64,000 nucleotides of DNA, from contig OZ024747.1 of NCBI GenBank assembly GCA_964016885.1, forward strand, positions 17,670,001 to 17,734,000, read 5' to 3'. Source of the stretch: Eledone cirrhosa (taxonomy: Eukaryota). Positions 1 to 64,000 of the stretch are shown here, piece by piece (position 1 is the stretch's first letter; each line of letters opens with the position of its first letter). The position numbers and the translations under genes were made by a program. Under the pieces are notes generated by a model, which was not told where the DNA came from, made no database searches, and saw only the letters and a list, made by a program, of their open reading frames with translations.

Positions 1-129
1 GTGTTTTTTTTTTTTTTTATTAGGCTCTTTCTTTCAGGAAAACCTGTACTGAATTTTTATTGACTTGTCTACAGCCCACATGTATATGAATATTAAATGT
101 ACCTTTTGATCAGTGGAGTTGAAAAAGTG

Positions 130-295
130 AAAGCCTAAGCGTGAATGTTTTACCAGCTAGAAACAACGAGTAAATCGCCCTCAAATAAAGAAACAATAGG
201 GCGATTACATGGACGATGTGACCCTAGATACATTACGTAAGGCTAGGGTTACTTTGATCACAGGCCTACTCAATCAGGGCTGATAAAAACTAAAA
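130..295 (+). mobile_element. Degenerate copy of a dispersed repeat carrying the GCTAGAAA(T/C)A(G/A)CAG...AAATCTCCCTCAAAT motif (candidate HDV-like ribozyme family)
   Basis: Matches 5265-5468 in both the 5' motif and the 3' TTGATCA...ATCAG segment; reverse-complement copies at 52358-52830 and 63613-63926. Confidence 0.55.
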
Positions 296-3362: not shown

Positions 3363-5264
3363 TTGTTGGTGTATTTATTGCTTCTGCAACTAATCCTCGC
3401 ACTATGAAACCTCAACCGACTCTCAGTGTAGGACTAGCACTTATATTATTGACCCAGGATATGTGAAGGGTGGAGTTGAAGTAAGCAGGATTTCAATTCA
3501 GAGCGTAACCAACGTAATGAAAAATTGTATTGCAGTTTATCTAACAAACTTCTGACCCCACCATCCATCGCCCTTAAATCAGCATTAAAAATGAACACGC
3601 AAATGTCACCGATCGCAATACACTTTTCAGAGTTTGAAACACAATTTAATCATTGTGCCCTTTCCGAATTCTTTCCATTATCTACTGTGAGAGAATTATG
3701 TCGTAATGTATTTCAATGTATTTGGAGTTTACAAGCAGTGAAGGAACTGAAAATGCCATTTGTCATTTGTCATTTTCTACTTACATAAAAGCATTCTAGA
3801 ACGTTCCTGTTTGTTTATTAGTTTATCATTGTAGTACTTATTTCTTACCTAAGCAAAAGACCCTCAAGCATATATATTTGATTGAAAATTGAATTGTGTG
3901 ACATTCATGTCATTCTCAATATTAGTTCAGTGAAAGCGATTGGTAGAGCAAACGAGAAAATGACTTGTGTGTAGTTGCATTCCTCTAAGTTCTGATTTCG
4001 ATTTCCAATGAATTTGATTGTGCCTCTCATCTTGAGGATCACATTTTGACTAAATACTTTCCAAAAGTCCGTGGATTCGCCCATATGCCACAACTCAATG
4101 TGTCGTGTGTAGTATAAATTATATCAAATAGCTACATAAATGAATTAACTCCATTTAACAAACTCGTTTGTCCAGGATATTCCTGCTTTTTATAATACAT
4201 ACTCATCTGTGTTATGTAATTTTTTTTTGTATTTGGTGATAGTGGAGCAATGTCACCAAATATTTCACGTCACTTTTTTAAGCAGAATTTTATAACGTTC
4301 TCGCACACTAAAGTCACTGCACCTTAACAACGTCTTGCTTGTAACTACCGATGCCATGGATAAGGTAACTGAGTTATATATCACACATTTACTAATAAAA
4401 TTTGAAGTAATCATAGTAGTTAAAAACGGACTGATATTATTGGCAGGAATATAATAGGACAAGAACCTCTTTTTGCTGCGTATCTTGCAACTGAATCAAA
4501 TGAAAGAATTCCTCAATATATTGTCAAGATGTCAGCTTTGGACCATAAGCGAAGAACAAAATTAATGTTACACCAGAGATACTTTTTATCAATGGTCTGA
4601 AGCTGTACTTATATGTAAAATTCATTGCATTGATGGGCATTGTTGTTCAAAATGTTCTGTAGGAATCTAATCAACCCTGGATAAATTCCTTTAGTCAGTA
4701 CACAATACTGACACAAGCAAGGTCAATGTATTTTATGCCTATCCATCAACTTTTCTTCGCTGTAATAAAGTAATTAGCTCTACTTATACTATTAATACAT
4801 CCAATAGTATACAGAAAGGTAAAGGTACATTGTAAAATATGTGACCTTTTTGTTTGTATTATACTTCAGCAAACATGATAAAACAAATAGCTAACTTATG
4901 GTAACTTGAAACCTTAGTATGGATTCTATTATTTTCCTTGGTCCACAAATGTTCTTCGTGAATGTAATGGACTTCATAAATTCTACGATATTGACTTTCA
5001 AATGTATATGGCTGTTGTGTGTGATCAGAAGGAAACAAAATTAGTAAATTATATTTATACATTATTTATACTGTAGCCTGTATATTTGCTGCATTACAAT
5101 AGGCCTAAAGTCAGTTCTCACAATACATAGTTATAGTCGCTGCAGGCAAGTGCATTACTGGTACATATTTTGCCGATGCATAGATAAATGTGTACAAAGT
5201 AAAGCTTCGCCTAACCTGAAGTAGAAATACTGTAATTTAGGATCATTGTAATCTATTCAAGTTG

Positions 5265-5468
5265 CTGAGCAACTTCTATGTGGTCATTCGGTAGAAACAG
5301 CAGTTAAATCTGCTTCAAGTCACACACTCCCGTCTTGGGAAAAGAAAGGATGCATTAGATAATGTAATCCTGCAAACCCATAAAAATACGGAAATTTTAT
5401 GGCGCAGATTTCCTTGATCATAGATATGCTCTATCAGTGTTGTTCTGAGGCTAAACAACAACAACAAT
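5265..5468 (+). mobile_element. Degenerate copy of the GCTAGAAATAGCAG repeat family with an (AAC)n tail
   Basis: ACTTCTATGTGGTCATTCGGTAGAAACAGCAGTTAAATC 5' motif; ends GGCTAAACAACAACAACAA, which defines the sense strand. Confidence 0.55.
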
Positions 5469-11142: not shown

Positions 11143-12223
11143 CAGGCAACAGGCCACTTTATCGGTCACACTAGCTTTGCCGGCGTATCTTTCATCGGTA
11201 ACCTCGTGCCGCGTCCTCGTCAGCAGGGTTCTTCAAAACACAATAGAACCCTCTGTGTTCAGAGAACGTGAGGCCGCCTGTGAGACGTGGGACCGGCTGG
11301 GACTTAGCCCAGTAGACGTCCCCCCTCCTTCTCCTCCTGTTGACGTCAAGTCCCCCCCCCCCCCAACGCACTTGGGATGCCATCCAGTGCAGCCTGGCCT
11401 CAGACAGGCTCACGCGCCAGCTCGACCAGCACCGCCTTGCTTGTTTTCGTGCGGCCTCCAAACGCCACAGTGGTGGCTGGCTCCATGCTCTGCCCTCCTT
11501 CTCCACTGGCACGCAGCTAGACAACCATAGCCTGCGAATCGGCGTTTCCCTGAGGCTCGGCCTCCGGATCTGCCATCCACACCAATGTCGCTGCGATTCC
11601 ACCGTGGACTCTTTCGGCCTCCACTCGCTTTCCTGTCGCCACAGTGCCGGCCGCATTCCACGCCATACTGCTCTCAACGAGGTCATTAAGCATGGCTTGG
11701 ACGCTGCAGGCTTCCCTTCCCAGCTCGAGCCGGTGGGGCTGGATCGAGGGGACGGCAAAAGGTCAGATGGCATGACCATCTTCCCGTTCCGCGGTGGAAA
11801 ACCCCTCGTCTGTGATGCCACTTGCACCAATACTTTCTGCAGCCGCAACCTGGGGCAGTCTGCGCCTGACCCAGGTTCTGCTGCACGTCGGGCTGAGGGG
11901 GCCAAACTCCTCAAATACCGGTCGCTCTCTGACAGGTTTGCGGTCGTTCCCTTGGCAGTGGAAACTTCTGGTGTCCTCGGCCCTAGGGCTACCTCCTTAC
12001 TCACCACCATAGTCGCTGAGCTAGCCAGCCGCAGGTGTGAGCCCCGCGAGTTGGAGTGGCTTTTCCAGCGTGTCTCCCTTGCCGTCCACCGGGGAAGCGC
12101 CTTCTCCATTCTGTCCGCCGGGGCTGTGGGTGGGCCCCATCGCGTACTAATACATTAGTTAAATACCATTCTTTCATCTGATACAACACAATAAAGACAG
12201 TGTGAAATATTTTTTTAAAAAAA
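11143..12223 (+). mobile_element. 5'-truncated CRE-clade non-LTR retrotransposon (zinc knuckle plus restriction-like endonuclease), pseudogenised
   Basis: ORF 11340-12158: WLHALP...LRLG, CxC...HSLSC...RH, EP...DGKRSDG (RPDG-like)...DATC...AE..K..KY...PLAVETSG...QRVSLAVHRG; upstream frame QATL..LALPAYLSS; AATAAA and A-tail at the 3' end; high GC. Confidence 0.88.
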
Positions 12224-12746: not shown

Positions 12747-13454
<708 letters not shown>

Positions 13455-16293: not shown

Positions 16294-17049
16294 TCACTCA
16301 CTGTCTCTATGTCTTTCCCTCTCACTCACACAGCGGCACATACATACATATTCCGAAATCTTTAATTACGCTCGCACTCATATGCACATACGTAGACATG
16401 GAGAGATACCAACATAAACACACATGCAGACGCACACACACGCATACACACACAAGAACCCACATATAGTACACGCGTGCGCGCACACTTATACACATTA
16501 TAACTGCAGTTTTTCAATCACATTCCTCACCTCATTCTGCGTCACATCTGCCGGTCATATCTTTGTTGGATGATGCAGAGATAGTTTAAGATGATATCGA
16601 AACCAAAAGTGACAATCTAGAACAAATTTCAAGACTTTGCGAATATTTTATTTTTCCGTACGTCATTCATTCAACTTTCTGTATAGCACCACCTAGCTGA
16701 ATTATTTAATTGTATGGTATTCAGCCAATCGAGTTACGTCCCTTAGATTCCTTATAAAGACTGATCTTAATTTATCTCTTTTTCTGAAATCAACTGAAAC
16801 GCCACTAGCTACCTTGAAAAATCGTTTGTGATTGATAATTAAGTAATTACAGGCTAATGAAACATTTACACTGGTTCTGTCGTCGCTAGAGTGTTTTATT
16901 TTACAGGATAGCCGATTATTGTCCGTAGGCGAAGTGGAAGACAATGAATTAATTCTAATCGTCATTAGTTCCGAAATTTGCCATAGTTGAATTCCGTTTG
17001 TAATTTTGTGATTGGTTAAAGAAATTTCTTATTGTTATAAGTTTCATTG

Positions 17050-17552
17050 TTTGTTGTTTTCATTATTTGTAGGGAGGTGGGGGCGGTGGATTGGCAGTAT
17101 CGGTAGAGGGTCGGACTCCATGCTTTGCAGCATAGAGTTACGGTCCTTTATGATCTGAGTTCAAATCCCGCCGAGGTTAACTTTGCCTTTCGTCCTTACG
17201 GGGTCGATAAAATAAAGTACCAGTCACACACTGGGGCCGATTTAATCGACTTTCCCTTCCCCTCAAATGACTGGCCTTGTGCCTATATAAGAAACCATTA
17301 TTTGTTGTTTTCATTATTTGTAGGGAGATGGGGGCGGTGGATTGGCAGTATCGGTAGAGGGTCGGACGCCATGCTTTGCAGCATAGAGTTACGGTCCTTT
17401 ATGATCTTAGTTCAAATCCCGCCGAGGTTAACTTTGCCTTTCGTCCTTACGGGCTCGATAAAATAAAGTACCAGTCACGCACAGGGGTAGATTTAATCGA
17501 CTTTCCCCTCCCCCTCCAAATTACTGGCCTTGTGCCTATATAAGAAACCATT
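17050..17552 (+). mobile_element. Tandem pair of full-length SINEs separated by a duplicated flank
   Basis: TTGTTGTTTTCATTATTTGTAGGGAG precedes both copies. Confidence 0.9.
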
Positions 17553-17711
17553 ATTTATTGTTTTCGTTTTATTTGCATAGGAGAGAAATTGGTGGGAAAT
17601 CTATTTTCCCTTTAACAATTAAAACACTTTTATTTTTCGTCACCTAGTTATTTCTGGGAGGGTCGTGAAGGCAAAGTCCTCAGGGACGCCTTTCGAAGTT
17701 CCAATCACAAA

Positions 17712-19057: not shown

Positions 19058-19214
19058 GTTTGTGTTACTTCGTGCTTCTTCAGTGATAATTAACTGGAAC
19101 TATATAATGAAATGCGTTGTAATTTTCAACACAATAGAAGGATGGGGGGTTGCTATTTCTTTTAGGTGATGTGACCATGTAATAGATCCCTCATTAAAAA
19201 CGATTAAAAGAGCA

Positions 19215-22499: not shown

Positions 22500-23165
22500 G
22501 GGGGGAGGTAGTGAGATTGGTGTTTATTGATATAGAAAGGGGTATTCGAAGAGAGTACCGAGTAGTAGATATAGAGAGGATGATAGTTTGGTGCTAATTG
22601 ATATAGAAAGGAGGATTGGAGGAGAGTTCCGAGTAGTAGATATAGAGAGGATGATAGTTTGGTGCTAATTGATATAGAAAGGAGGATTGGAGGAGAGTTC
22701 CGAGTAGTAGGTATGGAGAGGATGATAGTGTGGTGCTAATTGATATAGAAAGGAGGATTGGAGGAGAGTTCCGAGTAGTAGGTATGGAGAGGATGATAGT
22801 GTGGTGCTAATTGATATAGAAAGGAGGATTGGAGGAGAGTTCCGAGTAGTAGGTATGGAGAGGATGATAGTGTGGTGTTAATTGAAATAGAGAACGGGAT
22901 TGAAAGAGAGTTCCGTGTAGTAGTTATAGAGGGGGGAGAGTTTGGTGTTAATTGATATAGAGGGGAGGATTGGAAGAGAGTTCCGTGTAGTAGTTATAGA
23001 GGGAGGGAGAGTTTGGTGTTAATTGATATAGAGAGGAGGATTGGAAGAGAGTTCCGTGTAGTAGTTATAGAGTGAGGGAGAGTTTGGTGTTAATTGATAT
23101 AGAGAGGAGGATTGGAAGAGAGTTCCGTGTAGTAGTTATAGAGGGAGGGAGAGTTTGGTGTTAAT
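22500..23165. repeat. ~71-bp purine-rich minisatellite, ~9 copies
   Basis: AGAGTTCCG(A/T)GTAGTAG...TGGTG(C/T)TAATTGATATAGA recurs at ~71-bp spacing. Confidence 0.92.
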
Positions 23166-24168
23166 TGGATGTATTAGAAGACGGTGTTGTTATGGTTAAT
23201 GGGGAGAAGTTGATTAGTTCGATAGATATATGAAAGATCTCAAAGCTACATCATGTGATACATATTGAGAAAACACAGTATGGACTGTTTACTCTTAGCT
23301 GGATCATAGAAGCTTTTTGCAGTTGATGATTACTGTGAATGCTCTGGTGATATAATAGGAGGGAGTAGAATTAAAGTTGGCGTTGAAGAAGGGTTTGTGT
23401 TGTGAGATTGTTTTGTGTGTGTAATGTAGATAATGAAGTAAGAAATGCTATATTATATGGATGTAGATTTTAAACGAACTGTAAATGCATGCGCATGCAT
23501 TAAACCATCCCGTCCCCCTCACGCTTCCATATATAAATATGTACAAACGTAAAACACACATGTACTTGCTAATAACCAAGCAAGCAGCGGACTACCATGG
23601 CAACAGACCAATAATTGAAACCAATAATGCAAAATAAAATAAATGTATGGATATTCATAAAAAAAGAAATAGAAAGTTATACAAACACGCAATCATGCAG
23701 TTAGCTGGATAGAAATATGTGTATGTATCTTTAGTGCATTGATGATTGAGAGACCAAGCAATTAACTAAGAATACTTATGTAAAATCTTAGCCTGTTGTC
23801 TTTTGAGCTAAATATCTCTATTGGGGGCCTGGCAGAATATGTAGAAATTGTTAATAAGTAGAAATGGAGGAGAATGTAACTATACGAATAATTTGTATCT
23901 CAGTACAATGTACTTAGCGGCAATATAAATATAATATAAATTGAGCAGCAGCTACACGATTACTAACATGAATATATATATATAATTTACTCTAAAAACA
24001 TAAATAAATATAAATAAAAATAAAAATAAAAATAAACTATAGCTTTGTAGAATTAGCTTTTAATGAATTCCCTTTTCTATCAACCAATGACCTGCACCCA
24101 TCCCACTCCCCACCCTCTCCTACCACTTGTAGAGATCTATAAATACCATATTTATTTTTTTGATACCC

Positions 24169-26159: not shown

Positions 26160-27071
26160 GTTTGGCACAAAGCTAGCAATTTTAGAGGAGGGTAAAATTC
26201 GATTAAATAAACCCATGTACATGATTTGTACTTCATATTATTGACCCAACATGATAAAAGACAAAGTACCTCGATGGGATTCATATCCAAAATATAAGGA
26301 ACCGGAACAAATACTATTACTCATTTGTTTGACGCACTAATGATTCTGCTAATCCTCTACCCTAACATATATCCATAATAATTGTTTCTACTTTTGTCAC
26401 AAGGCCAGTAATTATCCCAGTGCGTTACTGGTACTTTATTTTTATCGACCCCGTAAGGATAAAAGTAAAAGTTAAGCTGAGCGGGATTTGAACTCAGAAC
26501 GTAAAGGACCGTAACTCAATGCCACGATGCATGTTGTCTGACGCTCTACCGATACTGCCAAATCCATAATAATAGTCGATCAACATAAATAATATTTGAG
26601 AAAATAGGGTAACAGTACCCCTAGAGACGGAAAAACAGATCTCTATTAGAGAATGTAGCTCCAGATATATTATATCAGGAAAAATTATGAGAGAGGTGGT
26701 GATGGCTTAAATATAAGCTGTGGTGACAATCCTTCAATTGTATTTCCTATTTGATCATAAATCTGTTCGATCAGAGATGATTTTGAGATGAACAACTATT
26801 TTACCTCAAATTACGAAGCTAATACAACTAGAATTTCTTCCCTACACTTACAAATCTCTATTCCTGTAGTCATAGGTATAATTGTTTCTACTTTTGGCAC
26901 AAGGCCAGGAATTATCCCAGTGCGTTACTGGTACTTTATTTTATCGACCCCGTAAGGATGAAAGGCAAAGTTAACCTCAGCGCGATTTGAACTCTGACCA
27001 TAAAGGACCGTAACTCTATGCTGCAAAGCATGGTGTCTGGCTCTCTACCGATATTGCCAATCCACCGCCCT
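26160..27071 (-). mobile_element. Three SINE copies (old 26160-26360; 26380-26565; 26880-27071)
   Basis: Reverse-complement cores; ATCCATAATAAT TSD around the second copy. Confidence 0.85.
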
Positions 27072-28857: not shown

Positions 28858-30121
28858 TAATTGTTTCTACTTTTAGGCACAAGGCCAGCAATTACCCAGT
28901 GCATTACTGGTAATAATAATGCTTTCTTTATTAACCACAAGGGTTTACATAAAGTAGACATTAAGGACAGTACAGGATAATACAGGACGGTACAAATGGG
29001 CATTTCTGCGTGTAAAAAAAAAAAAAACAGAGGATGTAACAAAAAAATAACAATGAAAAATTCCCCAATACGGGGGAGACTTCCGAGGGACATTCGTGGA
29101 GAAAGCCCATTAAAAATCCACAGTGACCCTGACCGCCAGGGCAAGTGCCCTCTCCCAGTTTTCCACCTTTAATTTACAGACACATACTCAGAGTAGGCCC
29201 ATTCACTCCTCGGGCCATTCTTGCCTCTCTCACCCATCTTTCAACAAAATGCTGGGAAGAGAGCACTTCCCTCTCTACCCTGATTTTCCTTGTCAAATGA
29301 AATTTGAAAAAGTTAATCAGGGCATCACCGAAGAGGTAAGTGCTCGTCTTCAGCCCTTTCACACGTGTCCACCATACTATCTATTTCGCCATGGCCACCA
29401 GACAGATAAAAACTGCCTGCCCTTCCCGGCTAAAGGAAGGAGGCGGCAATCCTCACGATGGACTTAGCTGATAGCTGGATCCGTCCTACACGCGACAGCA
29501 GGTGTTCGACATAAACCCACAAGTCAGCAATGCTCGGACACTGGACGAGTGCGTGCAGGACGGTTTCGTCGCCCTGCGGGCATCTCGGACATGCCCGGCT
29601 GACGGCACCTCCATGCCTGTAGAGTTTATCCCGAACTGGCAAAGCTCCTCGGTAGCACTGCCAGGCCAGGGATTTCTGGAAGTTGTCCATAGGCCCCGGC
29701 CCGAAAGTTCTTCCGAAGAGATTGGCTAGTTGATTTTCGTCAACGCCTAGAGTTTCCCCAAGTACGTCGTCGCTCTTCCCCTCCACTAATCCTCTATAGA
29801 ACGCAAAGGTGGAGTTTCCACCGATCACATTGCCCGATTGGTCGAGGGCTGTGAGCGCCTGAAGACATTCCAGTCTCCAAGCGCTCCCTCTCGGTCTTCG
29901 CTTGACCCAGGACTGCAGCTCTGTCAAGGAGACGAGCTGGGGAAAGACGCGTCTAGCAAACGGCGACCACACCTTTACACATTACTGGTACTTTATTTTA
30001 TCGACCGCGTAAGGATGAAAGGCAAAGTTAACTCCGGCGGGATTTGAACTCAGAATGGCAAGGGCCGTAACTCTATACGTCAAAGCATGGCGTCCGACCC
30101 TCTGCCGATACTGCCAATCCA
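28858..30121 (-). mobile_element. SINE split by a Tx1 LINE insertion (parts 28858-28912 and 29980-30121)
   Basis: The halves join to give a complete SINE; CATTACTGGTA is duplicated at 28902-28912 and 29980-29990. Confidence 0.88.
28913..29979 (-). mobile_element. 5'-truncated Tx1 (L1-group) retrotransposon, zf-RVT region plus 3' UTR
   Basis: ORF 29430-29972(-): LAWQCYRGALPVRDKL...CPRC...ETVLHALVQC...LW; homologous to 44417-45966; AATAAA plus (ATT)n tail; 11-bp TSD. Confidence 0.9.
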
Positions 30122-30138
30122 CAATAATAATAATAATA

Positions 30139-31071
30139 AGTAAGGAGCCAATGCTCAAAATTGTACTGAAGGTGAAGACAACAGACCAGGCGATGTCAAA
30201 GGAGGAAATAACAAGGAAGAAGAGCAACCTTCATGAAAAATCCCTTCATAGTACCTTCTTTAGGAAAACTGAATTTAGAGATCCACAGACATGAAACTGG
30301 TTAAAAAGAGGAGAACTTAAAAAAGCTACAGAAGGAATGCTAATGGCTGCGCAAGAGCAAGTCCTCAGAACGAAGTGGGTGAAACACCATATTGACAAGG
30401 AGTAGGCTCACTGTGTAGGATCTGTGGAGAGAGAGAGAGGAGACTGTGGATCACATTGTATCCGAGTGTGAACACCTAGCCCAGACTCACTATAAAGGCT
30501 GGAGACATGATGTGATAGGCAGGGTGATCCACTGGCATCTATGCAAAGTAAACAATTTACCACATTCTGAGAAGTGGTATGAGCATAAGCTAGATTCGGT
30601 AATAGAAAACGATCAGGTGAAGGTGCTGTGGGATTTTAGGATACAGACGGACAAGAAATTAGAACACAATAAGCCTGACCTGGTGGTTTTGGACAAGGAA
30701 AACAGATCGTGTCTGATTGTAGATGTAGCCTGCCCATTTGACACGAGAGTGCAAGAAAAGGAGAGGGAGAAAATTAACCGATACCAGGATTTAAAGTGGG
30801 AGTTAAAAAAGTTAAAAAGGATTTGGAACTGCCATGAAATCAAGGTCGTCCCGATTGTCATAGGCGCACTAGGTACTATCTCAAAGAGTTTCCAATGATG
30901 GTTAAAGAAGATTAGTCCAGCCCCGCTTTTTGGAACACTTCAAAAGGCATGCTTGCTGGGAACAGCAAGAACCCTCTGATACGTCCTGAATATCTGAGGC
31001 TGCAGGTAGCGGCTTGATATTCATTTCAACAAACTTCCCAGTTAAATAACATCAATGACTGAGACTCAAAG
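30139..31071 (+). mobile_element. 5'-truncated R4/Dong-clade retrotransposon (CCHC plus restriction-like endonuclease), pseudogenised
   Basis: TEGMLMAAQEQ, C..C...ETVDHIVSEC...Y...RHD, WDFRIQTD...NKPDLVVLDK...IVDVACPFD...KE.EK...Y..L...VVPIVIGALG; flanked by (AAT)n and (AAC)n. Confidence 0.9.
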
Positions 31072-44084: not shown

Positions 44085-44217
44085 ATAAGCGGTTCGATAA
44101 AATATGTACCAGACTGAATAGATACGTAGTTAAGTCAATATAATTGACTAAGTCTTTGAAGGTGGTGTCGCAGTATGGTGGCAATTCAATGACTGAAACC
44201 GACAAAAGAATATAAGA

Positions 44218-44220
<3 letters not shown>
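44085..44220 (+). mobile_element. 3' part of another SINE family sharing the TCGATAAAATA.GTACCAG core
   Basis: Core followed by a distinct tail AAGGTGGTG..GCAGTATGG...AATGACTGAAAC..AAAAGAATA. Confidence 0.6.
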
Positions 44221-44304
<84 letters not shown>

Positions 44305-44351
44305 CATATATATTTTTCTGTCTCTCTCTCGACCTATCTGTTTATACATCC

Positions 44352-44416
<65 letters not shown>

Positions 44417-44419
<3 letters not shown>

Positions 44420-45966
44420 CAGGAATACGAAAGGTTCACAGGAGCAAAACTGAACCCGGACAAGTCTGTCGGTTTGCAACTCGATACGTGGAGAGGCAAA
44501 CCGATGCCGTCCGACAGCGTCGTCGGACGCTGGACGGAAGGACCGGTGAAATTGCTCGGGGTCTGGTTCGGTCCAGACCTCCAGGTGGAGAAAAACTGCA
44601 ACGAGGTCAAGGCGAAGGTATTTGCGCTCACCCAGAAGTGGGCAGAGTGCAAACTGTCTTTAAAAGGTCGAGCGGAGGTGGTGAACACTTTCGTAGCGTC
44701 CGTCATCTACTACCGCTTGACTGTCGTGCCTTGTCCCCGTGAATACTTCCCCAAGATAGAACGCATGCTCTTCCAGTTCCTGTGGAAGAAACAGGCTCCA
44801 CTGGTGAGGAGATCCGTCTGCTATCAACACCCTTCCAACGGAGGGCTGGGCATGCCGTGGCTAATGATGCGCAAACATGCGCTGAGGTTACGGCATCTCC
44901 AGGTATTCCTCACCGACCAACCGGTGTGGGCACCGTTTGTGAGACAGGCCTTCCCACAACTTCTCTCGCTGACGGAGCTGCAGTCCTGGGTGAAGCGAAG
45001 ACCGAAGAAGATGGGCACTTGGCACATTGAATGCGCCCAGCCGCTCACAGTCCTCTGTCAAGCGAGCACAGCAATCAGTGGAGACTCCACTTCGACATTC
45101 TATAGAGGGTTAGTACTTTACAAGTGAGACGACGTGCTCGGGGAGTCTCTAGGCGTCGAAGACGACGAGCTCACCAGTCTGTTCGGTAGGACTTTCCGCC
45201 CGGTAACTATGGACAACTTCCAGAGGTTCCTGGCCTGGCAGTGCTACCGAGGAGCTCTACCCATTCGAGATAAGATCTACAGACACAGACGCCCGGCATG
45301 GATCCTTCCAAGAGGACGTGTCCAAGATGCGAGCAAGACATTGAAACCGTCTTGTACGCAATTGTACACTGCCTGGGCGTAACCGACCTGTGGAACTATG
45401 CAGAACAACTGCTGCCGTGTATGGGACAAATCCAGTTGACTGCCGAGTCCATAGTAAGGATCAAACCGCCAGCCTCTTTCAAAAACGAAAGAGAGGCGGT
45501 TTTCCTCTGTACAGTGGCTATGGTGAAAGAGGTTATATGCTGGACGAGATTGAGAGGACTGAGGACAGATGCCTTTCTCTCCGGACAACAATTGATTCCC
45601 TTCTTTAAGTATCACTTTAGAAGGAAAATCAGAGTGGAGAGAGAGGCACTGCACCCCAGTAAATTTACTGAAAGGTGTGTGAATGAAGCGAAAATGGCCC
45701 GAGTGATTGGGCCTTCTCTGTTTATAAGCCTGTAGGTTAAAGAAGAAAGCAAAAGGAATAACGGAGCACTTGCACAACACGCTCCTGAAGCTGAGGGTTG
45801 TTCTATCGACGGGGTATTAAACAACCCATTTGTGGCGCCTCCCCGCTATTGGGGATTTCGATTGTTATAATTGTTTGTTTATATTTTTTACACGACTGTA
45901 TGTAAAATCCCCGACATGTCTTTGTATTGTCCCCTTTTCTTGTGCGCCCTTGTGGCAAATAAAGAA
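44417..45966 (+). mobile_element. 5'-truncated Tx1 retrotransposon (end of RT, zf-RVT, 3' UTR) inserted in (TC)n
   Basis: YERFTGAKLNPDKS...VKLLGVWFG...W....LSLKGRAEVVN...GGLGMP...CPRC...ETVLYAIVHC; stops and frameshifts; (TC)n on both sides. Confidence 0.92.
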
Positions 45967-47343: not shown

Positions 47344-47693
47344 CCTTACATCATAATGATGATTTCTCCGACATTACCGTAGCTAGTGTAAAAATACCAC
47401 GCAGTAGGTTTAAACTCATGATTCCGCAATGACATTCTGAACCACTCAGCCATTTGGTGTCCACACTTACATATATACATACTTTCATACGTTCGTTTTT
47501 AACTAGCTTGATAACAACTACCCCTAAACTGCCTCTGGTTCTATTAAACAAAGCCAACCATTTGCAAGGATTCCACTTAAATTAAAACTTTCCAACAGGA
47601 TTTAATATAAGAACCATTTGATAGGTTATGTTTCAAGTACTGTCTTAATATAGAAATAATTAATAATTCCGGTAAACACCTGCGAATGTTTCA

Positions 47694-48324
47694 TTATTTA
47701 ATACAAATACGGCGGTGGTGGATTGGCAGTATCGGTAGAGGATCAGACGCCATGCATTCCAGCATAGTTATATCCCTTTACGATCTGAGTTCAAATCCCG
47801 CTGAGGTTGACTTTGCCTTTCATCCTTACGGAGTCGATAAAATAAAGTACCAGTAATACACTGAGTAATTTGCTTGCCTTGTGCCTAAAGTAGAAACAAT
47901 TATTTAATACAAAGGCGGTGGATTGGCAGTATTGGTAGAGTGTCGGATGCCATGCTTTGGCGCATAGAGTTACGGCCCTTGCCATTCTGAGTTCAAATCC
48001 CGCCGAGGTTAACTTTGCCTTTCATCCTTACGGGGGTCGATAAAATAAAGTACCAGTAATACACTGAGTAATTTGCTGGCCTTGTGCCTAACGTAGAAAC
48101 AATTATTTAATACAAATACGACGGTGGTGGATTGGCAGTATCGGTAGAGGATCGAACGCCATGCATTCCAGCATAGTTACGTCCCTTTACGATCTGAGTT
48201 CAAATCCCGCTGAGGTTGACTTTGCCTTTCATCCTTACGGGGTCGATAAAATAAAGTACCAGTAATACACTGGGTAATTGCTGGCCTTGTGCCTAAAGTA
48301 GAAACAATTATTTAATACAAATAC
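47694..48324 (+). mobile_element. Head-to-tail SINE trimer (subfamily order A-B-A)
   Basis: Three complete copies; ATTATTTAATACAAA at all four junctions. Confidence 0.92.
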
Positions 48325-49446: not shown

Positions 49447-50324
<878 letters not shown>

Positions 50325-51245: not shown

Positions 51246-52357
51246 TAACAATGCTAACAGATACTGTGTGAGGCGGAGAGAAGTACAAGAATCTAGAATG
51301 GAGGAACAAAAAACATTATTGTAACACAGGAGAGACAAGGATAGTGACATGAAGAGGACAAACAACTCCCTAAACCTCAGCTATCGACATAGACTGAGAC
51401 AGTTTTAACGCCAATCGATAGAACAGCTGGACTATCGTAGTTAAACACTGGTAGTTAAAATAAGATAGTTAAACACTGTGCTGTAATATTTTAAAGGATA
51501 TCGAACGAGACAAAAACACTGTACAGAATGCATACAGGAACGATAAAGTAAACAAAAATGAGAAACAGAACCTATCTGAAATTGCTGGAAACCAATGTAT
51601 AACGAAGAACAGAAAGATCTGTCACGATTAGACGGACAAAAGACAAACAAGAGATACGGCGTGTGGGTGACAGGGAGAAAAAATAACTAGATGCGCTTTC
51701 GGCAAAAAAAGAGTGTTGGCAAGACAGTGACTGCCTACAACTGAACGATTGAAGTCAGCTGTTGAAAAGAAAAGTGTTGATATTTCTGAAAAGCACTTGA
51801 TTTCGTTTTTATTTATTAATTCATTTTAGTATATACATGTGTATGCTGTCAGTTATACAACAGAAACAGAGAAATAAATTACTTGTTCTTAGAACACGGT
51901 AAAATAGCTGTTACCATGAATAAATTGAGACTGCCTGTAACTATAAGCACAAAATTACTCATATCTTGTTTTATATGCGGGTGACATAGCTGAATTATTT
52001 AGTATCTAAATATTTCTAATTTCCTGTGCAATATATATCCATGCTTATATATTTATTTAGGGTGTAAATAGAACAGAAATTTGTTGGATGTGTTTCTCTA
52101 TTTCTATGAAGACATGTATCGTTGAGTGTTTAAGCATGTGGTTTGATCCCACTGCATGGCATCTTGGATAAGTGATTTTACTATATAATCAATTGTAGAT
52201 ACAATTCATTTAACGGGCTTCCCTTCACAAAGTTTCTGTTCACCTAATTTTACCCACAAGGCTGACATGTGATCAAAATACATTCGATGCATAGCGATTT
52301 TGTTTTTATTTCCAAACTAAATGTACCTCTGACTATAATATTCAATCTGTTCACTTT

Positions 52358-52830
52358 TGTGATCTGAGAGCATAGTTCGACTGTTATTTCAAACAGATCA
52401 AGCGACCGTATACGACAATAAAGGTGTGATATGTGGAAAGATTTTAGCAGCTATTTCTAGCATATAGAGCGACCGCATTAATAGTCTCTTTTAGACAGTA
52501 AGAATGTGATCTGAAGGAAGGAAGATTCTATTAGATAGAGTAACCGCATTAAGCCTTTCTTTAGACCAGACATGAGGAATCATTTTGTAGCAGTAGACCA
52601 CGTAAGATATGGTTCATCACATGGTATGCCGGCCGCACTACTAAAAAAGATTCACTTGATTTTTTGGTAGGTATACCATTCAGAAAGCCAGATGGGAAGT
52701 ATGTAGTCCATGTACCGAAAGATTTCTCATGCCTTCTTTAGAGAGTGATAGTAGGGTCTGGGGTAAGAGTTCGGTCGCTATTTCCCGCAGAAGGAGCTAA
52801 CACGTTAAGGTACCTTTGTTGACTCCAAGT
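52358..52830 (-). repeat. Cluster of degenerate GCTAGAAATAGCAG-family copies
   Basis: GTGAT.TG....AGA.TT.G...CTATTTC.AGCA...AGCGACC recurs 3-4 times. Confidence 0.6.
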
Positions 52831-63221: not shown

Positions 63222-63323
63222 ATATATATATATATATATATATGAAATGTATGCATATTCTTGTGTTACGTCGATGTTTGACTTTGGCATGTCAAATAGT
63301 TTTTCATTGCTCAAATTTATCCA

Positions 63324-64000
63324 AGACTAGCATTAAAGCCCGGCGTTGCTCGGGGTCATTAAGTTACCAAAGTTAGGTTGCACCACCCATTTTATGGCAC
63401 CATTTTTTTGTCTGCCGGGCACTGGGTGAATGAATTGCAGACCTGGAAGCATGAGCTGCGCCAGCAGTGACAATTGTAGTTTCGCCTATGGATATTATCT
63501 CTGTGCAAAAAAGTGTTGAAATTTATTGTTTCACAGTACTTGCGCAACACGCGCGTAGACGATGCCAGCCGAACAACAGAGCTGCGATGGAGTTGTTCTG
63601 TTGGGTTGTCTGTGTGTTTTCTAAATTTAAGACAGTAGGGAGGGTTGTGATATGAGGGAGAGTTAGCTGTTGTTTCTAGCAGGTTTAGTGACCTCATAGA
63701 GGATATGTGTTTTCTAAATTTAAGACAGTAAGGAGTGGTGTGATATGGGGGAGAGTTAGCTGCTATTTCTAGCAGGTTTAGTGACCTCATAGAAGATATG
63801 TTTTCTAAATTTAAGACAGTAGGGAGGGGTGTGATATGGGGGAGAGTTAGTTGCTGTTTCTAGCAGGTTTAGTAACCTCATAGAGGATATGTGTTTTCTA
63901 AATTTAAGACAGTAGGGAGTGGTGTGAACGGACAGTATCACCATCAAGCTTGGAAAGAGAAAGTAGCAGAAAGTATGAAGTTGTATAGATTTTGAATGGT
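63324..64000 (+). mobile_element. Probable start of a Helitron-like element (extent uncertain)
   Basis: ACTAG..CCCGG-CGTTGC-TCGGG start, as at 32718. Confidence 0.45.
63613..63926 (-). repeat. ~91-93-bp tandem repeat (3.3 copies) built from the GCTAGAAATAGCAG family
   Basis: TGTTTTCTAAATTTAAGACAGTAGGGAG...GAGAGTTAGCTGCTATTTCTAGCAGGTTTAGTGACCTCATAGAGG is repeated. Confidence 0.9.

What the first reader, a model, noticed from the sequence alone, without database searches (positions are those of the whole stretch)
63647..63890. Dispersed repeat family whose consensus follows HDV-like (delta) ribozyme topology
Seen: copies at 130-190(+), 5265-5320(+), 52358-52830(-) and 63647-63890(-) keep the same module order on the strand that ends in the (AAC)n tail. 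The order is (A/G)CC, a 7-nt loop (TCTATGT, TCTATGA, TTAACGT), GGT, C(G/A)CT(C/A), hairpin CTGCTA-GAAA-TAGCAG, GCTAA/CCGAA, then TCTCCCTC. Established: HDV-like ribozymes run P3-L3(UYCHCGY)-P3'-P1'-P4-J4/2(GCNAA, catalytic C)-P2', and they process the 5' ends of R2, RTE and other non-LTR transcripts. Inference: this is a ribozyme-headed SINE-like family. The 52765-52830 copy also has a possible P1 (GGAGT/GCTCC). No copy here is intact, so the claim rests on a hand-built consensus.
Basis: partly seen in the sequence, partly recalled or inferred. Interest (0 to 1): 0.75.

Follow-up and report, generated by a model that had tools for sequence, protein, structure and literature searches.

The report
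Ribozyme-headed mini-retroposon, now fossil
These repeats are decayed copies of a very abundant short jumping gene whose rebuilt front end is predicted to fold into a hepatitis-delta-type self-cutting RNA that likely fixed where each copy began; the flagged stretch itself is a headless piece repeated inside an unrelated DNA transposon.

Summary
The family is real: an old ~212-nt (AAC)n-tailed element, roughly 1-2 x 10^5 copies, on average 72% identical to its consensus. It passes a strict HDV-like descriptor (0 of 100,000 shuffles; in 1.41 Mb of natural DNA only Ingi and Vingi LINE 5' ends pass). Family-specific sequence starts exactly at the predicted cleavage site, C1. There are no Pol III boxes. 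Best reading: a NARTc/SIDE-type non-autonomous retroposon whose ribozyme freed it from read-through and tandem transcripts, probably moved by an Ingi-clade LINE. Against it: no genomic copy passes, there is no covariation among copies, P1 has a C-C mismatch, P2 has two competing registers, no parent LINE was found, and cleavage is untested. The focal 63647-63890 stretch is a 93-bp tandem array inside a young non-autonomous Helitron and lacks the P1 and P2 5' strands. This scan found ribozyme-headed Vingi mini-retroposons before on other DNA (fish, skate). A Penelope-like family in the same window shares a 17-nt block and the crossing-helix layout, which is unexplained.

The parts
63327..64000 (-). 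Young non-autonomous Helitron-like element (~900 bp; its 5' ~220 bp lie beyond the window). It starts A|TC and ends with a subterminal hairpin and CTAG|T at 63327.
   Evidence: 39 other loci 99% identical over 296-297 nt among 40 scored of 1200 candidates. A|TC start in 20 of 20 loci where the start motif was found (30 examined), CTAG|T end in 25 of 25 where the end was found.
63613..63927 (-). 93-bp tandem array (3.4 units) inside the Helitron. Each unit is a captured piece of the retroposon (about positions 16-105: P3, L3, P1', P4, J4/2, P2' and body), without the P1 and P2 5' strands. It contains the focal coordinates.
   Evidence: TRF. (units match model 16/18-105 at E 1e-18 to 1e-20). (3-7 units per Helitron copy). 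(descriptor not passed).
63760..63775 (-). Best-kept P4 hairpin (6 bp, GAAA loop) of the middle unit, followed by the J4/2-like segment
   Evidence: Sequence
5257..5464 (+). Near full-length decayed copy of the retroposon, with (AAC)n tail; head damaged
   Evidence: (E 9e-32), alignment
124..283 (+). Decayed copy with internal deletions, no tail
52700..52826 (-).
   Evidence: alignment (element positions 2-133)
52260..52490 (-). Two head-to-tail decayed fragments (about 52416-52490 and 52260-52414)
19085..19195 (-). Further decayed copy (5' part)
   Evidence: (E 1e-7)
26641..26798 (+). Further decayed copy (3' part, with an insertion)
12903..12984 (-). Not this family: pseudoknot motif of a young Penelope-like element (subfamily A) that shares a 17-nt block and the crossing-helix layout with the family head
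49669..49747 (-). Not this family: the same Penelope-like motif, subfamily B, with a different but still paired crossing stem

Best explanation
The repeats are dead copies of a ~212-nt non-coding retroposon whose first ~65 nucleotides are predicted to have folded as an HDV-like ribozyme that likely cut the RNA just before nucleotide 1, and the focal stretch is a headless fragment of it amplified in tandem inside a young Helitron. The ribozyme released a unit-length RNA with a defined 5' end. A LINE enzyme, most likely of the Ingi clade, recognised the 3' stem-loop and (AAC)n tail and inserted it by target-primed reverse transcription. Shown: family, size, age, sharp 5' boundary, consensus pairing, tandem pairs, Helitron context. 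Inferred: folding, catalysis, transcription route, Ingi partner (about 45% by itself).
For: Consensus of 148 copies: P1 five WC pairs from C1, P2 seven WC pairs, 3-bp P3, 7-nt L3 with U first and G sixth, one U-A P1.1 pair, 6-bp P4, C-N-A-A in J4/2. A strict-junction descriptor is passed by the consensus, by 0 of 100,000 full shuffles and by 212 of 100,000 when only the unseen positions 1-15 are shuffled; 1 of 200,000 pass with both crossing helices fixed and the inner loops shuffled. In 1.41 Mb of natural loci on both strands it hits only 4 distinct sequences, all Ingi or Vingi LINE 5' ends. Blind boundary test (51 of 160 copies with a clean 5' part): positions +1/+2, left out of the alignment, show CpG or its decay products in 36 of 51, and positions -1 to -10 are background. 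Contigs from runs of four labelled organisms rebuild much the same head in their loose-end consensus. No A/B boxes or tRNA. 11 of 90 loci hold true head-to-tail copies, the arrangement that L1TcRz is said to resolve (PMC3383444, part 1 read). Ingi LINEs of this genome end in a hairpin plus (AAC)n, and Ingi-B begins with a C1, 6-bp-P1 HDV-like head. R2 ribozymes tolerate 6-bp P1, top mismatches and P2 mismatches (PMC3774820 passages).
Against: No genomic copy passes the descriptor, and only 1 of 178 keeps P1, P3 and the canonical P2 paired. No covariation among copies: two-sided changes 84 vs 84.9 expected in P1 and 53 vs 49.3 in P2. The descriptor was written after seeing the consensus and misses RTE heads, Ingi-A and some Ingi-B/Vingi copies. 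The canonical junction needs a weaker P2 (5 of 6 pairs); the perfect 7-bp P2 is slid by 2 nt and takes G16 from P3. The minimum-energy nested fold keeps that P2 and P4 and puts a small hairpin over the P1' strand. P1 ends in C-C, a mismatch suggested to silence one mosquito ribozyme. 3'-end similarity to Ingi is not significant (999 and 738 of 1000 shuffles score as high), and tblastn found no Ingi/Vingi coding sequence joined to a head. Target-site duplications are unclear (9 of 62 vs 13 of 300 controls). Rfam matched none of 8 family loci. A Penelope-like family shares part of the head.
Confidence: 0.7

Rival explanations
1. The family is a non-autonomous derivative of a Penelope-like element (retrozyme-like), moved by a Penelope enzyme. 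Its head is the same structured module as in the Penelope-like family at 12903-12984 and 49669-49747, with or without HDV-type catalysis.
For: Both heads have a similar 5' hexamer, a crossing stem that differs in sequence but pairs in subfamily A, subfamily B and this family, and a 16-of-17-nt shared block. 11 of 90 loci are tandem. Penelope RT fragments lie on the same strand as that motif (L415 and L418). Animal retrozymes are reported to come from PLEs (bioRxiv 10.64898/2026.07.22.740005, passages).
Against: The similarity is limited to 17-24 nt: scores 26-36 against a shuffle mean of about 22 and maxima of 33-38.5, and the downstream part is not significant. The Penelope motif is too short between its helices for P3-L3. 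This family has a sharp 5' start and an (AAC)n tail; 79 of 90 loci had no same-strand neighbour. P3/L3/P4/J4/2 are not explained by the crossing helices alone (1 of 200,000).
Confidence: 0.12
2. The master element was a real ribozyme-derived retroposon, but its head was already crippled (C-C in P1, slid P2) during the main amplification. It served only as a promoter or protective 5' structure, as in inactive SIDER heads.
For: The perfect 7-bp P2 lies in the non-canonical register. Several trypanosome SIDER heads with adequate predicted folds were inactive (PMC4035085 passages).
Against: The boundary is exactly at C1, and all core positions fit.
Confidence: 0.13
3. An ordinary Pol III SINE or MITE whose hairpins resemble an HDV ribozyme by chance.
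For: No Rfam match; no covariation.
Against: No A/B boxes with proper spacing and no tRNA; descriptor passed against 0 of 100,000 shuffles; boundary at C1; a microsatellite tail at one end only.
Confidence: 0.05

Closest known systems
NARTc/RIME/SIDER short elements of the L1Tc/ingi clade with L1TcRz (PMC3383444 part 1 of 4; PMC3185411 and PMC4035085 passages)
   Same: Short non-coding element (NARTc 263 nt) starting exactly at an HDV-like head; cleavage before a C1; single-pair P1.1; tandem copies; no Pol III head.
   Different: Animal genome; about 10^5 dispersed copies; (AAC)n tail; P1 of 6 positions with a C-C end (L1Tc has 7 pairs by its published primers); no parent LINE found; activity untested.
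R2 SIDEs of Drosophila (PMC3414825, abstract)
   Same: Ribozyme head joined to a 3' end, moved in trans.
   Different: R2 SIDEs are rare and confined to rDNA; this family is genome-wide and old.
Bipartite non-autonomous RTE/Ingi/Vingi LINEs (Kojima 2018, PMC5786205 passages)
   Same: Only RTE, Ingi, Vingi and R2 are reported to give such elements, and RTE, Ingi and R2 carry 5' ribozymes; the genome holds RTE, Ingi and Vingi.
   Different: Neither end matches a LINE found here, so the bipartite origin is inferred.
Mammalian CPEB3 ribozyme (Rfam RF00622)
   Same: Compact layout with a 2-nt J1/4 and single P1.1 pair (CPEB3 details recalled and as seen in the alignment).
   Different: Family copies do not match RF00622; a Vingi head of this genome does (60.6 bits, cut-off 35).
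Non-autonomous Helitrons with internal tandem repeats (hallmarks recalled)
   Same: The focal element has A|TC and hairpin-CTAG|T ends and a variable internal array.
   Different: Its array is made of a captured piece of the ribozyme-headed retroposon.

Membership tests
HDV-like ribozyme | P1 of 6-7 bp starting at the cleavage site, which is the element's 5' end | tested here: met
   Consensus only: 5 WC pairs plus a C-C at the top; boundary at C1; within the R2 range
HDV-like ribozyme | P2 crossing P1, its 3' strand directly after J4/2 | tested here: inconclusive
   The canonical register has 5 of 6 pairs; a perfect 7-bp register is slid by 2 nt
HDV-like ribozyme | 3-bp P3 with 7-nt L3 (U first, G sixth) | tested here: met
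   G.U, C-G, C-G; 903 of 200,000 loop shuffles pass
HDV-like ribozyme | P1.1 of 1-2 bp | tested here: inconclusive
   One U-A pair possible; too short to test
HDV-like ribozyme | P4 and catalytic C in J4/2 (C-N-A-A) | tested here: met
   6-bp P4; C53 or C54 fits
HDV-like ribozyme | Covariation of helices | tested here: not met
   None among 148 copies; uninformative for decayed copies of one master; no diverged active relatives were available
HDV-like ribozyme | Match to a curated model | tested here: not met
   0 of 8 family loci; the Vingi control is hit; the consensus itself was not scanned
HDV-like ribozyme | Mg2+-dependent self-cleavage | not testable with these tools
   Needs an in vitro assay
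HDV-like ribozyme (focal 63647-63890 units) | P1 and P2 5' strands present | tested here: not met
   Units start near element position 16; descriptor fails
Bipartite non-autonomous LINE (SIDE/NARTc type) | 5' end homologous to a LINE 5' end | tested here: inconclusive
   Same fold type and C1 start as Ingi-B, but no profile match to CR1, RTE, Ingi or Vingi bodies
Bipartite non-autonomous LINE (SIDE/NARTc type) | 3' end homologous to a LINE 3' end | tested here: not met
   Not significant against Ingi-A and Ingi-B; an older parent may be lost
Bipartite non-autonomous LINE (SIDE/NARTc type) | Microsatellite tail shared with a LINE | tested here: met
   (AAC)n in the family and in Ingi-A; RTE and Vingi tails differ
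Bipartite non-autonomous LINE (SIDE/NARTc type) | Target-site duplications | tested here: inconclusive
   9 of 62 vs 13 of 300 swapped controls; copies about 28% diverged
tRNA/5S/7SL SINE | Pol III A and B boxes or small-RNA head | tested here: not met
   (tRNA-type boxes and ARAGORN only)
Non-autonomous Helitron (focal element) | 5' TC, 3' hairpin + CTRR, insertion between A and T | tested here: met
   20 of 20 and 25 of 25 ends found among 30 loci
Penelope-derived retrozyme | Homology to a PLE pseudo-LTR | tested here: inconclusive
   17-24 nt only
Penelope-derived retrozyme | Type I hammerhead in each unit | not tested
   None seen by eye on either strand of the consensus; no descriptor run

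The most novel reading that the evidence does not exclude
The head is one RNA module shared between two unrelated retroelement classes. This family is an HDV-type counterpart of retrozymes, copied about 10^5 times, and the young Penelope-like family in the same window carries a conserved, shrunken form of the same fold (P3/L3 and one P4 arm lost) that does a job usually done by the hammerhead.
Probability: 0.12. Interest if true: 0.75.

Novelty: new member of a known kind. Interest (0 to 1): 0.45.

Why it matters
If the consensus cleaves, one of the commonest old repeats of this genome (about 10^5 copies, shared by at least four labelled organisms) spread with a ribozyme head instead of a Pol III promoter. 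In the papers I could search, that strategy is described only for trypanosome NARTc/SIDER and for rare rDNA-bound R2 SIDEs. It would also add a natural HDV-like variant (C1 start, U-A P1.1, two P2 registers) that can be tested directly. The kind of element is known, the copies are dead, and the focal coordinates are ordinary Helitron cargo, so the surprise for a specialist is moderate.

Tried and rejected
Parent search: top RT hits were a CR1-type LINE; a young RTE has a different tail and head; Ingi-A/B and Vingi were found, but none matches the family by profile. No young subfamily: 4 exact hits for a word keeping three CpGs and 10 for a 5' word. No match in metagenome or viral contigs. Sequencing-run search: no RNA holder listed, which says nothing on expression. 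Special conservation of the P4 block is mostly ascertainment: 83% vs 66-68% when chosen by the whole profile, 78% vs 65-74% when chosen by the 3' half. The copy estimate of 6 x 10^4 was rejected as biased for the same reason. A by-eye homology with the Penelope-like family downstream of the shared block, and with Ingi 3' ends, did not survive shuffling. An A at position -1 seen in 9 of 10 5'-anchored rows (two rows from one tandem) was not confirmed (24 of 51). A relaxed descriptor with long J1/2 missed the RTE heads and gave a chance hit. Paper searches with no description of this family: (0 papers). Ruminski 2011 is not held; Repbase/Dfam could not be searched, so the family may be catalogued under a repeat name. 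Supplements were not read; those of PMC5786205 list SINE sequences that may bear on this. Rows dropped before counts: the 30 Helitron loci and window 63301-64000, 12 duplicate loci and 3 duplicate hits; copies lacking a clean 5' part (109 of 160; 10 of 41; 13 of 191).

Full report
Observation. The window lies in a 3.0-Gb animal genome; earlier scan notes on the same genome call it an octopus (unchecked). Rfam shows no ribozyme among the best 150 of 291 weak window matches.

The focal stretch. 63613-63927 is a 93-bp tandem array of 3.4 units. The surrounding DNA recurs at 99% identity over 296-297 nt at 39 other loci among 40 scored candidates. It belongs to a ~900-bp element that starts A|TC (20 of 20 starts found) and ends with a hairpin and CTAG|T (25 of 25 ends found; 30 loci examined), with 3-7 units per copy. 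These are the hallmarks of a non-autonomous Helitron (hallmarks recalled). It is highly amplified in one labelled organism and thinly present in three others. Each unit covers about positions 16-105 of the older family, so the P1 and P2 5' strands are missing and the focal units cannot fold as the ribozyme. The Helitron is about 2% diverged and the family about 28%, so capture of a retroposon piece by the Helitron is the simple reading (inference).

The family. A 22-nt P4+J4/2 word has 685 exact copies and the reversed control none. Alignments of 100, 148 and 197 copies give a 212-nt element ending in (AAC)n; 127 long copies average 72% identity to the consensus, the best 80%. Copy number is about 1.2 x 10^5 from density (28 copies in about 0.70 Mb of loci not chosen for the family) and 2.2 x 10^5 from scaling the exact word. 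Contigs of runs from four labelled organisms hold the family, and their loose-end consensus rebuilds much the same head and body independently of my alignment; one contig of another organism matches locus L033 with its flank at 24 differences in 320 nt, so insertions predate those splits. There are no Pol III boxes and no tRNA. 11 of 90 loci hold true head-to-tail copies, against 3 with an inverted neighbour.

The head. The CpG-restored consensus (letters) pairs as follows: P1 positions 1-5 with 30-34, all Watson-Crick, then C6-C29; P2 10-16 with 59-65, all Watson-Crick; P3 16-18 with 26-28; L3 19-25; a possible single U21-A35 P1.1; P4 37-42 with 47-52; and C-C-A-A-A at 53-57. A descriptor with canonical junctions accepts the consensus in one parse only, with C54 as catalytic C and P2 10-15 against 58-63 (5 of 6 pairs). 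It accepts 0 of 100,000 full shuffles, 0 of 100,000 with P4/J4/2 fixed, 212 of 100,000 with only 1-15 shuffled, and 1 of 200,000 with both crossing helices fixed. On 1.41 Mb of natural loci, both strands, it found 4 distinct sequences, all 5' ends of Ingi-B or Vingi LINEs, which serves as positive and negative control at once. It was written after seeing the consensus and misses RTE heads, Ingi-A and damaged Ingi-B/Vingi copies. Family-specific sequence begins abruptly at C1 (a few upstream columns near -11 to -15 also deviate there, probably from alignment). In a blind test with +1/+2 left out of the alignment, 36 of 51 copies show CpG or its decay products there and -1 to -10 are background. 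A 5' boundary at the predicted cut site is what HDV-like heads of L1Tc/NARTc produce (PMC3185411, PMC4035085 passages).

Against. No copy examined passes the descriptor, and 1 of 178 keeps P1, P3 and P2 paired. Paired positions do not covary among 148 copies. That is expected for neutral decay of one master but leaves the fold without phylogenetic proof. The perfect P2 is slid by 2 nt from the canonical one and competes with P3 for G16. R2 ribozymes often have 6-bp P1, mismatches at its top and in P2, yet a C-C in P1 was suggested to silence a mosquito ribozyme (PMC3774820 passages), and some well-folded SIDER heads are inactive. Rfam matched none of 8 family loci, while the Vingi control scored 60.6 bits with CPEB3.

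Partner. CR1, RTE (tail of a different hexamer) and Vingi (different tail, CPEB3-like head) do not fit. Ingi-clade LINEs are present (2A-like peptide, endonuclease, RT, RNase H; clade assigned from domain order and recalled motifs). Ingi-A ends in a hairpin plus (AAC)n, and Ingi-B starts with a C1, 6-bp-P1 head. But the family's 3' end is no closer to them than shuffles, these LINEs are younger (about 90% alike), and target-site duplications are unclear. An older Ingi relative is therefore an inference.

An unexplained neighbour. Two window inserts (12903-12984 and 49669-49747, minus strand) belong to a young Penelope-like family (416 exact hits of a downstream word; RT fragments on the same strand, tandem units). 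Its two subfamilies share with our head a similar first hexamer, a crossing stem that differs in letters but pairs in all three, and 16 of 17 nt of the P4/J4/2 block. It is too short for P3-L3, and the similarity is marginal and does not extend. It is the basis of the first rival and of the novel case.

Comparison and novelty. It works like NARTc/RIME/SIDER and R2 SIDEs; Kojima 2018 lists RTE, Ingi, Vingi and R2 as the clades that give such elements. Membership of the HDV-like class is met for the consensus architecture but not shown by covariation or assay; bipartite origin is not shown. Nine paper searches gave no description of this family; repeat databases were not searchable. What I saw of papers: PMC3383444 part 1 of 4; passages of PMC5786205, PMC3185411, PMC4035085, PMC4748587, PMC13708176, PMC7761336, PMC4758252, PMC3774820 and two bioRxiv preprints; abstract of PMC3414825; the rest as listings; Ruminski 2011 not held. 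This scan noted Vingi mini-retroposons with HDV-type heads in fish and skate genomes, and Vingi, RTE and Helitron HDV-like folds in this genome; none matched this family by sequence.

Verdict. A real, old, very abundant retroposon family with a probable fossil HDV-like head (about 70%), a new member of a known kind; the focal coordinates are inert Helitron cargo. Interest 0.45.

Noticed in passing
window 12903-12984(-) and 49669-49747(-); L393-L422: Young Penelope-like family with a conserved H-type pseudoknot whose long stem differs between two subfamilies yet stays paired (also a compensatory change within subfamily A); function unknown; not matched by earlier notes.
   Followed up: partly
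L313:2511-2593(-); also L314, L316, L317, L321, L336: Vingi LINE 5' end matches the mammalian CPEB3 ribozyme model at 60.6 bits (cut-off 35); already noted by earlier scan reports on this genome.
   Followed up: yes
L262, L297, L309 (Ingi-B) and L261, L294-L296, L298 (Ingi-A) 5' ends: Ingi-B has a compact HDV-like head starting with C; Ingi-A appears by eye to have an HDV-like head with about 22 extra nt in L3. Both often sit at the same place inside another repeat or in AAC/AGC-rich DNA.
   Followed up: partly
L221, L223, L225, L226: Young RTE LINE (~3.5 kb) whose 5' UTR shows by eye a long-J1/2 HDV-like fold; L210 and L216 have a different upstream segment joined at the same point.
   Followed up: partly
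window 11316-12158(+): Fragment of a CRE-like restriction-endonuclease retrotransposon (motifs recalled).
   Followed up: no
window 30419-30898(+); 29430-29981(-); 44216-45735(+): R4/NeSL-like and Tx1/L1-like retrotransposon fragments (by eye).
   Followed up: no
window 17045-17565 and 47693-48321: Tandem copies (251 and 203 bp) of another abundant SINE with a B-box-like word.
   Followed up: no
window 22517-23167: 71-bp minisatellite, 9.2 copies.
   Followed up: no
L001 (first 400 bases of the oriented locus, beyond the window end): A second Helitron-like element with a similar terminal hairpin lies about 800 bases beyond the start of the focal Helitron, on the opposite strand.
   Followed up: no
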